Of a DNA stretch of 64,000 nt, positions 33,001 to 42,000 are shown one piece after another; the first letter of the stretch is position 1; every line of letters begins with the position of its first letter. Source of the DNA: Ophelia neglecta (Eukaryota); NCBI GenBank assembly GCA_965285935.1, contig OZ260664.1, positions 48,856,001 through 48,920,000 on the forward strand, in the 5' to 3' direction. Position numbers: made by a program.

Positions 33001-36000
33001 TCCAGTGATTGAAATCGAGTGGTCGACTGTATAAGATCTCGTCCGTATACTCGTGCAGAGTATACCCGTATAAATCACCGGTCATCAACTATAATAGATT
33101 TTTGTCCTATCAGATTAGATGGTTGATTTAGCAAATGTATCCTTTTTTTTTATTGTAAGATTCTTAACATACAGCAACCTGTATATTTTTCTAATAACAG
33201 GTGGCTACAAAGAAGCCTTCACCTTCATCGACAGAGGACTTCCGATCCTACCCAAAAAGGCGGCAAGCCTAAACACTGTATACCTGATCAGTGCATTTAA
33301 GACACTAGAAAGTCAAGACACCCGCGAATTGGATGAAAGTTGGAGTGTATGGAGTGGTGCCGACTTTATTGTAGAAAATATTCCTCCTATATTGAGCCTT
33401 CAGCGATTGACTTTCCACAAGGTTAAATACAATCTGGACAAAGAAACATTTCGATACGTTCTAATGTGTGAATTGACGGAGGGCCTGACAAAACTATCAC
33501 GTACTCTTTCCTTTGTGGAGTTGTTAAGACTGAGACAGTGTGGCTACTCCAATGTATACGTTCCTTTGCAACACTTCTGAAGACTAGATGATGCTGATAG
33601 TGGTGGATTAATATTCCTTTTCATCTTAAGAAATCTAACCCACGAGGAACTAGATCAATCAAGATATAACCTTTAACTGTAGCTTGAATCAAGTAATAAA
33701 GGGTATGGATTCTTTTGTAGCTATAAGATTACCGCTTTTACCTGTATTATGTTCCTAGACAGATGCTGAATGCTTTTCCCCATGGATATATTATACAGGC
33801 ACAGTAGGAGCAATTAATTCAATTGGCTGCTCACGGATTGTCGATCGATATTGACCAAGAATCCATTGGGGGTATTTATCTCGTATAATACCGAACATCT
33901 TAGCTTGACCGGTGTCTTGATTATCACTTGTACAAAGTAGAGGCTAAAAGAGTTCGGTATTCATCAAAATTGGACATTTACTGGTCACATATTAAAAGTA
34001 CTTTACCTAGACCTACAGTTTTGTAACAGATGTGCATAGTAAAATGATAACAACACAACTCACAAATCAACCTTTAATACTGTAACACATACCCGAATTC
34101 ACTGGTAACATTTTGACTCTCGGGCTCTTTGAGTTGGAGGCAACGTCTTCTATTTTATAGCAGGCTGTCTTATTCAAAACTTGTTTTATGTGACATGTGA
34201 CTTATATATTGGACTTTTATACAGGTTTTCACGTAATAAAAACGTCGATTAGCCTAATAATGAAGATTTTCGGATTAATTGATTATAGTTTGACTTGGGG
34301 TATGCAAGTCGATATCTACGCCCCTGATATCATTGTCACCCTGTTGGCTGAACCTGACCTGGGAATGTCCGCTCGGTAGGGTCTGTTCAGTTTTCAACCT
34401 ATAAGCCAGCATTATAAAAACGACAAGAAGAGCGGTTCCCAGCAAACATACGATCACTAAAACGACGATAGCTCCCGGACCGAGACCGGACGGGCCATGC
34501 GCTGGCTGAGTCGGCGTAACCGGGGTAAAAACAGGTATTGTCCCTGAAAAATAGACCAAACAGTACATCAAGGATATCCTTATTATTGTCTTATCACCTT
34601 TTTTCATTCGGAGTTAAATGCATAATATTTGGTTGCTTTTGTACGATCCTTTAAACTGCAGTTCTTTTTTATATGGAATGCATGACGTTTACCTTCTAGG
34701 AGAGTTATATACCAATAACTAGTCTCGCTACAAGCAAAGCCGACTGATTCGACATTGAGTCCTCTTGTATGATACCATGACAAAAACGTCTCTTCACCAA
34801 GTTCCTCACCTGTTTCAACATCAACATTCGTTTTATTAGGCGCACTGGACCAGTTATGAAATAAAACTATGATGCCCATGCGAAATAATTCGTACATATT
34901 TGTTTTTTTAAATGACCCAAGAGCTAGTACGCATTATATTGCATTAGGACAAAAAGTGTTAAAATATGTTTCCGAAAAGTGATCCTCTCTTCTAGCCTAT
35001 GTAAATCGAAGGTTTTCATGATCGTGCGAGGAAGTCGAAATTTGTTTTAATCTTTCATTTAGTGAACTGAGAACGAGAACAGTTTCCCATCTGATCTTTT
35101 ATCAAGCCGCCCACAGCCCCCACCCGGACACCCCACCCACCCTACCCTCATCTCGCTTGAGACACTGCGTCCATATTTTGTGTTCCGTATAATGCTATAT
35201 ATGCTTATATGCAATCCTACCGGTTCCAACTTCGATCGATTGCCCATCCCATGCAATCCAGAAAGATACTTGTTCGCCACCGTCTAGTATATCATCAGTT
35301 TGACTGTGAACCAAGACTTCATTGGATCCGAAAATGCCAATGGAAGACCTTTAAAGAGAGTAATTCGATTATGAAAAAGCACAAAACATCATGTGACACC
35401 AAAAATTAAAAACTCATCAGACATTTACTGGTTACAGGTAAATAACTAATCGGGAATGCACTGTTACTAAGTTCCTATTTTGATTTGGCCTGATATTAAA
35501 CCTACCGTGAGTTGTTTAGTTCTCCAAGTCGTACCTCTATCATTCCCTCAGTGAACCCGATGTATCTTTCTGATAGAATCAAGCAAACCATGCCAGACGT
35601 TTTCACGCTAAACTTTACCAATGTTGTGTGTCTAACTGTCTTCCAAATATGTTGATACTTTTCTTCCTTGGAGACCATTGCGAACGCTCTTTGCGCTAAA
35701 GGTGTATTGATGGAACAGATAAAATAACGCTTTAATACCTTAAATCTATGTTGTTTCATTCATTTTAGAGAGTGTTGCTATAGGGAGTTTTCACTCGATT
35801 TTCATCGGGAAAAGATCTTTTTTTAAAGATGCTCTGAAATTAGAAATATACGGTAACAGGCATAAACAAATTCAGTTAACCACGCCGTTATTTGTCCAAA
35901 ATATTAATAAATAACTCTCTTATGGCAGCATTTATTAAAAGAAAAACACGCTAGCTCTTCAGAATTCAATTGGTCCCCTTCTTGACAGATTTGCATGCCG

Positions 36001-39000: not shown

Positions 39001-42000
39001 ATCATATAGGAGAATCTGATTTTGTCCAGGTAAACTGCTGTGTCCGACCGCTATTTGCTCATTGTCCCAACTGATCCAAATGTCTCTTTCGTCTTCACAG
39101 GTAAGAAATTTTTCTATTTTCTCAGTAGCAACGGTCACTTTATTGACTCTTAATGACACTAAGTTATTAACAATGTCGAATATAACAGTGTATTTTCTAT
39201 TTCCTTCAAACCCAGGCAGTCCTAGATCTAAGTCATGACAAAGATCTATGTAAATTGCCGAGCCACACGATGCTAAAGCAAGGCGTAACCAGGTTACATT
39301 TCCATTAAAAACGGTCATGCTCTGGGCGGCAAGTAGGACAAACAATTCTTCACCTATACAGGTAGATTAAAGTATTCTTTAGTCAATCAGAGCTGAGGGA
39401 CGTATTACTAACTGCAGCAAAAATAAAAAACTAAAAGAATGAAGCCGTTTAGAAGTAATATTTTTATTAAACTGCAAAATATGTACATAAGCACTAATAA
39501 AGTATGACTAACTGTCATGGTCTAAGTAAAGTTAGCAGAGCCCTTGAAATAGTAGATTCTTTGATAAATATACAAGGTCTGAATTAAACATATCGTAAAT
39601 AAATTATACATATTGAAATTCGCTGGACATAGAAATGAATGTGATGGCGTTTCGACATCTTGTATGTCGTTTTATTTCACCAAGCAGAGCAATTAAGCCA
39701 ATATCATGTCTTGTTAGTTGAAGCGGTCATATGGTTCTGTCATGACAGTCACTGGCAAATCAGGCATAACATTTCTCTCCTGGTTCAGTTGAGGCTGGTT
39801 GCTTTCATTTCTGCGAGATATTCGTAGTGTTGGAAGGCCTAATGCAGACCGCCATTTCATCACTAAATGAACTAAGAGCATGATCATCAGGGTGGCGATG
39901 ATAGAGCCGATGACGATTCCTGCTATGGCTCCTGGGCTCAAACCTCCCCCGCCCTGGGGCGGAGGCCCGGTCACCGTCGGCGGAGAGACCGTGGGAAATG
40001 TGTCTGGAAATGTATTTCAGACCATTGTTGATAAGTAGAATTATTCTGTTCAGTCTTGTTTTTTTTTAGCATTGGGGTCTACGAGGTGTACAGTAAAGGA
40101 AATAGTTACCTCAATGACACGTCTTTATCTAGGATATCGATTAAGTGCTCACCAAGTTGTTGTCTTTTAAAGGATTTTATATTTAGCCCGGCTCTTACCG
40201 ATTATTGGACTATTTTTGGATAATGATTTGGCTTTGTCTACCTGCCCGTTTTTTCACACATATATAGTAGTTTTTAAAATTTCTCACCATTAGCCAGTAA
40301 TATACTCCAGGTAGAGTTGCGAGAATCGTGGTTTGAGAATCCCACGGCGTCGACGTGTAACGCTCGTGGTGTGTAGAAGGATAATATTTTACCCTCAAAT
40401 ACAACATCACCTAATACATCATGAATAGAACGGTTTATTATTTTTATCTATTAGACAATTATGGTACTGAAAGCAGCTGATAGAGCATATAGTATATTAA
40501 TGTATACTCTAAATTTCACATTATGGAATAAGAAAAAACAGATATTCCTACCCTCGCCGATTTCAATTCCTCCATTCGTCCACGATATCCAGAAAGACCG
40601 AAGCTCGTCACAGTGTAGAATGTGTGGGGTTGGCATGCTGTATACGGCGTCTGCGCCGAATATTCCAATTTCTGTGCTAATCAAGTCAAAGAGGATGTTA
40701 TTAATTTGTAATCCGGTCCGGGCAATTACTGGAATGGTCTGATATATTTCTTAAATGGGGAAGGTACATGTATATACCGTGTGTTTCCCTTCGATCCTAT
40801 CCTAGCCTCGAGCAGGTCCTCTGTAAGGCTGAGTCCTCTGGATAAGAGGATCAGGCGGGCCTCACTGCACCCCATCACGGCGAACCTCAGCGAAGATCGG
40901 TGGCGAACGGACCGGTACACCGGCAGGTGGAGGTGGGGGGACGACTCCCCGATCCTGGTCTTAGCCATTTCCGAGGTACCGGGCAAAATGAACACAGTCT
41001 TCAGTCCTGAAAGCGCGCTAACGATTTTAGATCAACTGTGTCAAAGAAATCATTAAATTCTCAAATAGGCGAATTTGATATTATGTATAGTCCAACATGC
41101 CCTACCGACATTTTCAAGACTTCTCCAATGACCCCTCGTCTCCCGTGGTTTGTGGTACATGCTAATAGCATTCACTGTCAGATTTAATTGTTCGGCGTTG
41201 GCATATTGCAAAATCTGGTTTTGTCCCGGTATACTGCTGGTGCCGATTGCCAGTTGCTGTCCTTGCCAGCTCACCCAGACATCCCGCTCATCGTCACAAC
41301 TGATCAGGTCTCCGATTGGCTCAGACGCCACATGTGTGCCTCTGATGCGCAATGTAACCGTTTGAAAGTCCTTGTCAAATTGGAATTTATAACATTCAAA
41401 TCCCCCGCTTAATGGATCATCCGATTGTGTCAGTTCAATCAGTTCGATGGAAAAGGATTTCCCACAGGTAGCAAAAGACAATTTTATCCATGTAATGTCC
41501 TGGTCAATAACAATAATGCTCTGTGTTCCAAGTTGGTAGTAAAGTTCGTCCCCTACAAACAACGTTCACAATTCGAATCCAAACAGTATCGAATAATATC
41601 TATATAGAGTACCAGCACCACGGGAAAGTTCGAGAAATAAACACGATCCGAAAATGGAATTATGGAAGAATGTGAAGTAAGAATGCACAGAACGGCGAAA
41701 AAGAGATAATCCTGGTACCGATATTTTACTGTGTTGATATATACAATCGAGGGGGAACTTAAAGTAAGAAGGTTTTGGGAAAGACACACATGTCATAGCG
41801 AACCGCACCCAAATATATTCGGACGTTTAGGTATTATTAAATAGTAAGAGAAAAGAAATGATATTTACACAGCTATTATAGGCCTCATACTTCTAAACAT
41901 GCGTTTTTGTTCATTGGAAACGTAGATACAGACAAGAAATGACGAGGTCATAAAAGTGAACACAAAGTTCTTCCAAATAGAAGAAATGCAATTCTACAAT

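What the first reader, a model, noticed from the sequence alone, without database searches (positions are those of the whole stretch)
34543..40288. Uniform phase-1 boundaries also allow a length-tunable ectodomain (6, 8 or 10 domains)
Seen: the donors ending B1 (40288) and B2 (37979) are phase 1, like the acceptors of A2, A3 and all three TM exons. Inference: skipping TM1 (and TM2) would chain the cassettes in frame into 8- or 10-domain receptors, and mixed pairings such as B1 with TM2 are also in frame. The locus could therefore vary ectodomain length and tail independently. This model competes with strict mutual exclusion.
Basis: inference. Interest (0 to 1): 0.65.

Follow-up and report, generated by a model that had tools for sequence, protein, structure and literature searches.

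The report
Three tandem receptor-tail cassettes, all phase 1
An invertebrate membrane-receptor gene carries three old tandem copies of a "two domains plus membrane anchor" block whose exon borders all fit together in frame, so longer 8- or 10-domain receptors are possible, but that fit is inherited from the duplication and nothing available here shows which joins are used.

Summary
On the minus strand, all six named boundaries (40288, 37979, 39353, 36491, 37854, 34543) lie at AG/GT sites and are phase 1. Every proposed join reads through as Gly or Asp without a stop.

The locus is one compact gene. Four lectin-fold (Methyltransf_FA/FAMeT) domains, D1-D4, are followed by three ancient tandem copies of a five-exon block [A, Ba, Bb, Bc, TM/tail/stop]. 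The copies are 26-50% identical in protein.

Phase uniformity is not special to the cassette borders. All 10 of 10 domain-boundary introns in the gene are phase 1, and the three cassettes inherited their phases by duplication. In-frame chaining is therefore automatic: it permits the length-tunable model but is not evidence for it.

Cassettes 2 and 3 have no convincing first exon of their own, so they must be reached by read-through from upstream. No transcript or annotated protein of this species was reachable, so chaining (B-to-A) and mutual exclusion (D4-to-A) cannot be separated.

On kinetic grounds I rank nested 6/8/10-domain forms slightly ahead (about 0.4). Free mixing of ectodomain length and tail is less likely. 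Interest is modest.

The parts
49914..49950 (-). Candidate first coding exon (ATG, 12 hydrophobic residues, phase-1 donor CAG|GTGTGT); tentative
   Evidence: A rival start at ATG 47746 would need a 44- or 68-nt intron, shorter than any of the 22 modelled introns (minimum 99 nt). Not resolved.
46600..47638 (-). Domain D1, three exons: 47638..47499, 47207..47034, 46735..46600 (phases 1>0, 0>0, 0>1)
   Evidence: for borders. Pfam Methyltransf_FA 33.6 bits on ORF 46950-47264.
45504..46261 (-). Domain D2, two exons: 46261..45945, 45636..45504 (1>0, 0>1)
   Evidence: Pfam Methyltransf_FA 42.3 bits and 16.0 bits.
44473..45343 (-). Domain D3 (divergent), three exons: 45343..45129, 44950..44847, 44654..44473 (1>0, 0>2, 2>1)
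   Evidence: No Pfam match at E<=0.1. Weak similarity to B1b (E 0.005) and to P0019 (E 8e-6).
42100..43302 (-). Domain D4, two exons: 43302..43057 and 42312..42100, both phase 1>1. The donor at 42100 is the last constant donor.
   Evidence: Pfam Methyltransf_FA 17.4 and 18.8 bits, below the 24.2 cut-off.
41106..41552 (-). A1 exon (447 nt, one whole domain, phase 1>1)
   Evidence: Pfam 15.8 bits. 44% identical to A2.
40288..41006 (-). B1 domain, three exons: 41006..40778, 40676..40552, 40410..40288 (1>2, 2>1, 1>1). The phase-1 donor is at 40288.
   Evidence: B1b gives Pfam Methyltransf_FA 25.9 bits, above the 24.2 cut-off.
39714..40003 (-). TM1 terminal exon: P/T/S-rich stalk, TM helix, 51-residue tail ending Y-D-R-F-N, stop TAA at 39716..39714. 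AATAAA lies at 39676.
   Evidence: KD 2.54 over 21 residues, followed by basic residues; hexamer 38 nt after the stop.
38907..39353 (-). A2 exon (447 nt, phase 1>1)
   Evidence: Pfam 22.3 bits. Atlas score 0.97 to FAMeT-domain clusters. Model pLDDT 85 with a galectin-like fold.
37979..38733 (-). B2 domain, three exons: 38733..38508, 38337..38213, 38101..37979 (1>2, 2>1, 1>1). The phase-1 donor is at 37979.
   Evidence: B2b gives Pfam 23.6 bits. About 50% identical to B1 exons.
37577..37854 (-). TM2 terminal exon: stalk, TM helix, tail ending Y-H-R-F-N, stop TGA. AATAAA lies at 37487.
   Evidence: KD 3.10; hexamer 90 nt after the stop. 40% identical to TM1.
36054..36491 (-). A3 exon (438 nt, phase 1>1)
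   Evidence: No Pfam match, but 31% identical to A2 at E 1e-18. It keeps the family-invariant C, W and G.
34693..35695 (-). B3 domain, three exons: 35695..35506, 35348..35221, 34809..34693 (1>2, 2>1, 1>1)
   Evidence: Pfam 14.6 and 16.7 bits.
34275..34543 (-). TM3 terminal exon: stalk, TM helix, 43-residue tail, stop TAA. ATTAAA lies at 34078. This is the last possible terminal exon, because a plus-strand gene converges from 33580.
   Evidence: (KD 3.30), and 38 (DUF7153 ORF 33119..33580, plus strand).

Best explanation
This is one compact gene on the minus strand for a type I membrane protein. Its ectodomain is a string of FAMeT (Methyltransf_FA) domains, which are predicted galectin-like beta-sandwiches.

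Four constant domains (D1-D4) are followed by three ancient tandem duplicates of a five-exon block. Each block holds a one-exon domain A, a three-exon domain B, and a terminal exon. The terminal exon encodes a stalk, a membrane helix, a short tail, a stop codon and a nearby poly(A) hexamer.

Every domain border in the gene is phase 1, and the duplicated blocks inherited those phases. That is why everything joins in frame.

Cassettes 2 and 3 have no start or signal exon of their own. They can only be expressed when the polymerase reads past the poly(A) site of the cassette in front. I infer that the choice is made at the last B donor: either join the nearby TM exon and polyadenylate, or skip it and join the next A exon. 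This would yield a nested series of 6 domains + tail 1, 8 domains + tail 2 and 10 domains + tail 3. Direct D4-to-A2 or D4-to-A3 joins could occur alongside.

- **Shown:** the exon anatomy, phases, in-frame joins, homology of the cassettes, and the domain family and fold.
- **Inferred:** a shared promoter, read-through, and which junctions are used.
For: **Splice sites, phases and frames**
- All 15 of 15 cassette exons are intact.
- Junction residues are G, D or A and never a stop.

**The cassettes are old but maintained**
- A1-A2 are 44% identical, A2-A3 31%, A1-A3 26%, B1a-B2a 50%, TM1-TM2 40%.
- A1-A3 account for 3 of the only 9 stop-free runs of at least 145 codons among 3723 minus-strand runs.
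- They keep the family-invariant C, W and G.

**Each TM exon looks terminal**
- Each has a stop plus AATAAA or ATTAAA at +38, +90 and +197 nt. The chance probabilities are 0.086, 0.18 and 0.345.
- TM1 and TM2 share a Y-x-R-F-N C-terminus.

**No room or signal for separate starts**
- Only 360 nt separate the TM1 stop from A2.
- ATG plus phase-1-donor candidates are 7, 4 and 5 in the three gaps. None is convincing before A1 or A3.

**Kinetics favour B-to-A over D4-to-A**
- The A2 acceptor lies 934 nt from the B1c donor, against 284 nt for TM1, and its pyrimidine tract is no weaker (12 versus 10 of 18).
- For A3 against TM2 the tracts are 14 versus 13 of 18.
- D4b to A2 or A3 would need the D4b donor to wait across 2746 or 5608 nt while skipping four well-formed exons.

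**Long arrays are viable in the family**
- 11 of 13 scanned relatives carry the domain, with 1 to 8 matches each.
- One 3814-aa relative has 13 matched stretches.
Against: No transcript, EST, annotated isoform or orthologous locus could be examined, so not one junction is observed.

Phase compatibility is equally predicted by strict mutual exclusion and by plain duplication history.

Pyrimidine counts and distances are crude proxies for splice-site choice. The A1 acceptor is the weakest of the three A acceptors (10 of 18), which would also suit regulated skipping of cassette 1.

The poly(A) hexamers are individually not significant in this AT-rich DNA.

One hydrophobic ATG-ORF with a phase-1 donor sits just upstream of A2 (39518..39413). 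It could be an own first exon if a 59-nt intron is tolerated.

The signal-peptide exon of the whole gene is not settled.
Confidence: 0.4

Rival explanations
1. Strict mutual exclusion. The D4b donor (42100) joins A1, A2 or A3, and each B joins only its own TM exon. This gives three 6-domain receptors that differ in their two membrane-proximal domains, anchor and tail.
For: D4b to A2 and to A3 are in frame, both giving Gly. The A1 acceptor has the poorest pyrimidine tract of the A acceptors, at 10 versus 12 and 14 of 18, as expected if cassette 1 can be bypassed. Each cassette is a complete, self-consistent unit with its own tail. By recall, not from a call, the IgM/IgD heavy-chain transcript works this way.
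Against: It requires bypassing four exons with normal splice sites that are separated by 99-141-nt introns, plus a terminal exon. It also requires keeping the D4b donor free over 2.7 or 5.6 kb. No docking/selector-type complementary intron elements shared by the cassettes were found: the 24 inverted and 22 direct repeat families in 34000-42600 are all short matches with two or three copies. No transcript data exist either way.
Confidence: 0.3
2. Separate transcription units. Cassettes 2 and/or 3 are small genes of their own, with an unrecognised first exon giving two-domain membrane proteins. The in-frame fit with upstream exons would then be irrelevant.
For: A hydrophobic ATG-ORF (39518..39413, 35 residues) ends in a phase-1 GT donor 59 nt before A2. 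The TM2-A3 gap is 1085 nt, which is enough for a promoter.
Against: Such ATG, hydrophobic, phase-1-GT strings are common in this T-rich DNA. There are 27 in the 2.4 kb upstream of D1, several of them more hydrophobic. A 59-nt intron is shorter than all 22 modelled introns, whose minimum is 99 nt. No comparable candidate lies before A1 or A3. The TM1 hexamer and the A2 acceptor are only about 320 nt apart.
Confidence: 0.12
3. Free combinatorial use. Ectodomain length and tail are chosen independently, for example B1 with TM2 or TM3, as the first reader also suggested.
For: All such joins are in frame: B1c to TM2 gives Asp, B1c to TM3 gives Gly, and B2c to TM3 gives Gly.
Against: Each mixed join must skip a whole cassette of four normal internal exons. 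Nothing in the sequence marks these joins as favoured, and in-frame status is inherited. No data.
Confidence: 0.08
4. Only cassette 1 is used. Cassettes 2 and 3 are unexpressed duplication relics.
For: They lie downstream of a stop and an AATAAA hexamer.
Against: At 26-50% protein identity, the copies would have lost their frames and splice sites if unselected. Instead, 10 of 10 exons in cassettes 2 and 3 keep AG/GT borders and open frames. The family-invariant residues are also kept.
Confidence: 0.05

Closest known systems
Skipped-terminal-exon / alternative last exon genes (calcitonin/CGRP; NCAM-120 versus NCAM-140/180; titin Novex-3). Recalled, not from a call.
   Same: One donor chooses between a nearby terminal exon with its own stop and poly(A) site, or skipping it to reach further coding exons. 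This is exactly the choice faced by the B1c and B2c donors.
   Different: Here the skipped exon and the distal exons are paralogous, repeated three times. Each skip would add two ectodomain modules and swap the anchor and tail. Usage is not shown.
Immunoglobulin heavy-chain C-mu/C-delta co-transcription, and teleost IgD with C-mu1 spliced onto C-delta exons. Recalled, not from a call.
   Same: Tandem cassettes of phase-1 domain exons, each with its own membrane exons and poly(A) sites behind a shared 5' part. Both exclusive and chimeric (chained) products are known there.
   Different: The domain family is different (FAMeT / galectin-like fold, not Ig), there is no V(D)J part, and the lineage is an invertebrate. 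No expression data.
Drosophila lola / mod(mdg4) type loci (common 5' exons, many alternative 3' cassettes). Recalled, not from a call.
   Same: A constant 5' part is joined to one of several 3' terminal cassettes.
   Different: Those encode nuclear BTB-zinc-finger proteins and their cassettes are not chained. Here the cassettes are extracellular modules plus anchors and could concatenate.
Phase 1-1 exon-shuffled extracellular modules (Patthy's rule). Recalled, not from a call.
   Same: All 10 of 10 domain borders are phase 1, so any whole-domain insertion, duplication or skip stays in frame.
   Different: Nothing differs. This is the ordinary explanation of the observed uniformity.
Methyltransf_FA (PF12248) domain proteins: arthropod FAMeT, CPAMD8, abalone shell-matrix protein UP5
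   Same: The same domain family. The domain occurs in secreted or extracellular proteins: CPAMD8 (passage read in PMC9363628) and abalone UP5 with a signal peptide (passage read in PMC6003135).
   Different: This gene strings 6-10 such domains onto a single-pass anchor. No described membrane receptor of this kind turned up in the paper searches. Search listings only were seen, apart from the two passages.

Membership tests
Methyltransf_FA / FAMeT domain family (PF12248) | Match to the Pfam model at or above the gathering score (24.2 bits) | tested here: met
   Exon by exon, D2a gives 42.3 bits and D1b 33.6, and B1b gives 25.9, all above the cut-off. A2 22.3, B2b 23.6, D4b 18.8, D4a 17.4, B3b 16.7, D2b 16.0, A1 15.8, B3a 14.6 and B2a 12.0 fall below it. 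A3 and the D3 exons have no match. Scores are depressed because domains were scanned as single exons, not joined.
Methyltransf_FA / FAMeT domain family (PF12248) | Conserved core residues (C...W..W......G, C-terminal W) kept in the A domains | tested here: met
   Alignment A1 of 14 sequences: C85, W95 and G103 are invariant, and W92 and W142 are present in at least 90%. All are present in A1, A2 and A3.
Galectin / concanavalin-A-like jelly-roll fold (resemblance only) | Two-sheet beta-sandwich superposable on galectin carbohydrate-recognition domains | tested here: met
   The A2 model has pLDDT 85.0 and pTM 0.82 with 11 strands. Foldseek against PDB gave 306 matches at E<=0.001. The top hits are galectin-8, -4, -9 and -1 CRDs, CBM66 and lichenases, with TM 0.53-0.65 and 6-13% identity. 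This is fold likeness only. Sugar-binding residues were not tested.
Type I single-pass membrane protein | One hydrophobic helix near the C-terminus followed by basic residues | tested here: met
   Best 21-residue Kyte-Doolittle means are 2.54, 3.10 and 3.30 for TM1-3. They are followed by K-W-R, K-D-R and R-L-K, preceded by 23-25-residue P/T/S-rich stalks, and followed by tails of 43-51 residues.
Type I single-pass membrane protein | N-terminal signal peptide | tested here: inconclusive
   There are two candidate first exons, 49950..49914 and ATG 47746. Neither was verified, and no signal-peptide predictor is available.
Alternative last exon (skipped terminal exon) locus | Two or more terminal exons, each with a stop codon and a poly(A) signal, downstream of a shared donor and in frame with it | tested here: met
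   There are three TM exons with stops. Hexamers lie at +38, +90 and +197 nt, with joint chance about 0.005 from the three probabilities. All joins are in frame.
Alternative last exon (skipped terminal exon) locus | Transcripts that end at each terminal exon and transcripts that skip the proximal ones | not testable with these tools
   No RNA or eukaryotic genome collection is open. Protein searches with A2 and TM1 found no protein of this species.
Dscam-type mutually exclusive exon cluster (docking site / selector sequence pairing) | One intronic docking element complementary to a selector element in front of each alternative unit | tested here: not met
   The repeat scan of 34000-42600 gave 24 inverted pairs of 14-27 nt. 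None links the D4b-A1 intron to sequences in front of both A2 and A3, and there is no repeat family shared by the three pre-A regions. This is a weak test, since short or gapped pairings can be missed.

The most novel reading that the evidence does not exclude
The locus encodes a graded 'ruler' series of receptors. Competition between terminal-exon definition with polyadenylation (TM1, TM2) and skip-splicing to the next A exon would produce 6-, 8- and 10-domain lectin-fold ectodomains. Each length would be hard-wired to a different membrane anchor and cytoplasmic tail, so one gene would couple how far the receptor reaches from the membrane to which signal it sends.
Probability: 0.3. Interest if true: 0.6.

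Novelty: new member of a known kind. Interest (0 to 1): 0.3.

Why it matters
If the nested forms exist, a single invertebrate gene would set ectodomain reach and cytoplasmic signalling together, through a simple choice between splicing and polyadenylation. That would be a tidy model for how tandem duplication of a 3' block creates receptor diversity.

As it stands, the value is practical. It is a warning for annotation: gene predictors may report the 10-domain path, three 6-domain paths or a single truncated gene. It also illustrates that in-frame compatibility between duplicated phase 1-1 modules carries no information about their use.

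Tried and rejected
**Looking for annotated or transcript-derived proteins of this species, exon by exon**
- A2 with lengths 'longer' and 'near', and TM1 with 'longer', returned no hit.
- The exhaustive representative search with A2 gave 36 proteins at E<=0.001. The best was a 161-aa single-exon-like fragment at 47% identity (P0001). None was from this locus.

**Steps that could not be made**
No orthologous locus could therefore be compared.

**Negative scans**
- Docking/selector or conserved intron elements: none convincing.
- Own first exons for the cassettes: only chance-level candidates.
- Plus-strand ORFs overlapping the cassettes: 0 of 10 had a Pfam match.
- Rfam over 33000-49000: 0 matches.

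**Literature**
- Four searches gave no paper on membrane-anchored FAMeT-domain arrays or on this arrangement.
- Only listings were seen, plus two passages. Supplements are closed.

**Deliberately left out**
- The joined spliced model was neither built nor searched. The three-exon B domains were scanned only as separate exons and were not folded.
- Inter-domain interface predictions (D4-A versus B-A) were therefore not attempted, and complex prediction was not used.

**Origin of the contig**
- I do not take the contig for human. It has compact 99-nt-scale introns and a multi-FAMeT gene, and the nearest Atlas cluster is commonest in Mollusca.

Full report
**Observation**

Read on the minus strand, the region holds three consecutive five-exon blocks.
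- Cassette 1: A1 41552..41106; B1a 41006..40778; B1b 40676..40552; B1c 40410..40288; TM1 40003..39714.
- Cassette 2: A2 39353..38907; B2a 38733..38508; B2b 38337..38213; B2c 38101..37979; TM2 37854..37577.
- Cassette 3: A3 36491..36054; B3a 35695..35506; B3b 35348..35221; B3c 34809..34693; TM3 34543..34275.

All 15 of 15 exons are flanked by AG and by GT (or a stop), and all are open in the assigned frame. The window contains no N.

The B1c and B2c donors and the A2, A3, TM2 and TM3 acceptors are all phase 1. A script that formed only the three-base junction codon for every donor with a downstream acceptor returned Gly, Asp or Ala and never a stop. Chains (B1c>A2, B2c>A3) and mixed joins (B1c>TM2, B1c>TM3, B2c>TM3) are therefore in frame.

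**Anatomy of the whole gene**

Upstream on the same strand lie four more domains (refined the borders):
- D1: 47638..47499, 47207..47034, 46735..46600.
- D2: 46261..45945, 45636..45504.
- D3: 45343..45129, 44950..44847, 44654..44473.
- D4: 43302..43057, 42312..42100.

D1, D2 and D4 match Pfam Methyltransf_FA. Of 48 minus-strand ORFs scanned, 5 match, and two are above the 24.2-bit cut-off (42.3 and 33.6 bits). D3 is only weakly similar. 'Six, eight or ten domains' is therefore right if D3 is counted.

Introns are short, from 99 nt up to 1170 nt within the model. The start of the gene is not settled. A 12-residue hydrophobic ATG exon with a good phase-1 donor at 49950..49914 fits the 47638 acceptor. 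An alternative ATG at 47746 would need a 44- or 68-nt intron.

Downstream of TM3, a plus-strand ORF with a DUF7153 match (33119..33580) converges on the locus. TM3 is therefore the last possible terminal exon.

**What the domains are**

Scanned exon by exon, 7 of the 15 cassette peptides hit Methyltransf_FA at E<=1. B1b scores 25.9 bits, above the cut-off. A2 scores 22.3 and B2b 23.6, just below. A3 and the short Bc exons have no match.

The protein Atlas places A2 at 0.97 with clusters named as FAMeT-domain proteins. The nearest cluster is commonest in Mollusca, with phylum known for 16 of its 74 members.

A model of A2, built from an alignment of 14 sequences, has pLDDT 85.0 and pTM 0.82 and is an 11-strand sandwich. 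Foldseek against the PDB gives galectin carbohydrate-recognition domains, CBM66 and lichenases at TM 0.53-0.65 and 6-13% identity. This is a fold resemblance, not membership of the galectins.

The three TM exons each encode four parts:
- a 23-25-residue P/T/S-rich stalk;
- a strongly hydrophobic 21-residue stretch (Kyte-Doolittle 2.54, 3.10, 3.30);
- basic residues immediately after it;
- a 43-51-residue tail.

TM1 and TM2 tails both end Y-x-R-F-N.

By passages read in two papers, this domain is known in extracellular proteins: CPAMD8 (PMC9363628) and an abalone shell-matrix protein with a signal peptide (PMC6003135).

I do not take this contig for human.

**The cassettes are old duplicates kept by selection**

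Protein identity is 44% for A1-A2, 31% for A2-A3 and 26% for A1-A3. It is about 50% for B1-B2 exons, 27-44% for B3 against B1 or B2, 40% for TM1-TM2 and 29% for TM1-TM3. Exon lengths and internal intron phases are the same in all three cassettes (Ba 1>2, Bb 2>1, Bc 1>1). They differ from the exon structures of D1-D4. Cassette 3 therefore split off first, then 1 and 2.

At this divergence, unselected copies would not keep ten open exons with intact splice sites. The A exons are 3 of the only 9 stop-free runs of at least 145 codons among 3723 runs on this strand. They also keep the invariant C, W and G of the family. All three cassettes must be expressed in some form.

**Why the phase uniformity says little**

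All 10 of 10 introns at domain borders are phase 1: D1|D2, D2|D3, D3|D4, D4|A1, and the three A|B and three B|TM borders. The 12 introns inside domains are 4 phase 0, 4 phase 1 and 4 phase 2.

This is the ordinary signature of phase 1-1 extracellular modules (recalled knowledge). In the single-cassette ancestor, the A acceptor and the TM acceptor were both phase 1, because they followed the phase-1 donors of D4 and B. Any tandem copy of [A..TM] is then chainable from the moment it arises.

In-frame chaining is an inherited by-product. It removes an objection to the length-tunable model but does not count in its favour, and strict mutual exclusion predicts it equally.

**Which joins are used?**

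No direct evidence could be obtained.
- Exon-by-exon protein searches found no protein from this species: A2 'longer', A2 'near' and TM1 'longer'.
- The exhaustive representative search with A2 found 36 hits at E<=0.001. The best was a 161-aa fragment at 47% identity that reads like a single A-type exon.
- No eukaryotic genome or read collection is open.

What remains is anatomy.

1. Cassettes 2 and 3 lack a credible start.
   - The TM1 stop and the A2 acceptor are 360 nt apart, with an AATAAA in between.
   - The scan for ATG, hydrophobic stretch and phase-1 GT gave 7, 4 and 5 candidates in the three gaps.
   - Only the one before A2 (39518..39413) is hydrophobic and close, and it needs a 59-nt intron, below the 99-nt minimum seen in the model.
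   - Such strings are frequent in this DNA: there are 27 in the 2.4 kb upstream of D1.
   - A shared promoter with read-through is therefore the most economical reading.

2. Each TM exon is followed by a poly(A) hexamer at +38, +90 and +197 nt. The individual chance probabilities are 0.086, 0.18 and 0.345.

3. The B1c donor meets the TM1 acceptor after 284 nt and the A2 acceptor after 934 nt. The B2c donor meets TM2 after 124 nt and A3 after 1487 nt. The A acceptors have pyrimidine tracts at least as good as the TM acceptors (12 versus 10 and 14 versus 13 of 18).

4. D4b>A2 or D4b>A3 would span 2746 or 5608 nt. It would have to bypass four normal exons separated by 99-141-nt introns. Under co-transcriptional, first-come splicing (established knowledge, applied here by inference), a transcript that reaches cassette 2 will usually already carry A1-B1.

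5. No docking/selector-like complementary elements were found.

6. Long arrays of this domain are viable. Of 13 relatives scanned, 11 carry it, with 1 to 8 matches, and one 3814-aa relative has 13 matched stretches. At least two FAMeT-bearing relatives have a hydrophobic segment close to the C-terminus: P0026, and P0034 with a similar IAGxVIG-like motif.

**Ranking**

I rank a nested series first, at about 0.4: 6 domains + tail 1, 8 domains + tail 2, 10 domains + tail 3. The choice would be made at the last B donor by competition between terminal-exon use with polyadenylation and skipping to the next A exon.

The other readings rank as follows:
- strict mutual exclusion from the D4b donor, about 0.3;
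- separate transcription units, about 0.12;
- free mixing of length and tail, about 0.08;
- unexpressed relics, about 0.05.

The weak A1 acceptor (10 of 18 pyrimidines) and the complete lack of RNA evidence keep the first two close.

**Comparison with known systems (recalled, not from calls)**

The choice faced by the B donors is the skipped-terminal-exon type known from calcitonin/CGRP, NCAM-120 versus NCAM-140/180, and titin Novex-3.

The overall layout resembles the C-mu/C-delta region of immunoglobulin heavy chains. That region also has a constant 5' part followed by tandem cassettes of phase-1 domain exons, each with its own membrane exon and poly(A) site. Both exclusive products and chimeric products (teleost C-mu1-C-delta) occur there.

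Drosophila lola and mod(mdg4) share the 'common 5' part plus alternative 3' cassettes' idea, but without chaining.

Four literature searches (listings only) turned up no membrane-anchored FAMeT-domain array or this arrangement. Supplements were closed.

**Verdict**

This is a new member of a known kind, an alternative 3'-terminal cassette locus built from phase 1-1 modules. Interest is modest (0.3). It would rise to about 0.6 if long-read cDNA showed the graded 6/8/10 series.

**Left out on purpose**

The joined spliced model was neither assembled nor searched or folded. The three-exon B domains were examined only exon by exon, and no domain-domain interface prediction was made.

Noticed in passing
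window 3..3246 (-): Two long open frames (798 aa running off the window end, and 289 aa) are full of ankyrin repeats. Pfam Ank_2 gives E 1e-115 and 6e-32.
   Followed up: partly
window 33119..33580 (+): A 153-aa frame matches DUF7153 (E 9.5e-30). It lies on the opposite strand and converges on the 3' end of TM3, which bounds the cassette cluster.
   Followed up: partly
window 61573..61860 (-) and 60387..60662 (-): There is an Arf-family GTPase exon (Pfam Arf E 5.7e-21) and a weak importin-repeat-like frame (18.8 bits, below the cut-off) upstream of the receptor gene.
   Followed up: no
window 15516..17072 (-), 11828..12751 (+), 29138..30151 (+): Long open frames of 518, 307 and 337 aa have no Pfam match. 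Their nature is unknown.
   Followed up: partly
window 39717..39737 and 37580..37600 (-): The TM1 and TM2 cytoplasmic tails both end Y-x-R-F-N before the stop, while TM3 ends differently. This could be a conserved C-terminal sorting or docking motif.
   Followed up: no
window 34667..34692 vs 36510..36535; 36479..36501 vs 37375..37397: The 26 nt right after the B3c donor are 73% like the sequence 19-44 nt upstream of the A3 acceptor. A 23-nt copy (78%) of the A3 acceptor plus its first exon bases sits in the TM2-A3 gap. These could be duplication scars or chance (families D3 and D5).
   Followed up: no
window 39413..39518 (-): A 35-residue hydrophobic ATG frame ends in a phase-1 GT donor 59 nt before A2. 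It is judged chance-level but not excluded as an own first exon for cassette 2.
   Followed up: partly
window 49914..49950 (-) and 47683..47746 (-): There are two candidate signal-peptide first exons for the whole gene. The distal one has the better donor and a normal intron length.
   Followed up: partly
protein P0034 (library hit, 177 aa): This relative has a FAMeT domain followed by a hydrophobic segment with an IAGxVIG-like motif resembling the TM exons here. Anchored FAMeT proteins therefore exist elsewhere.
   Followed up: partly
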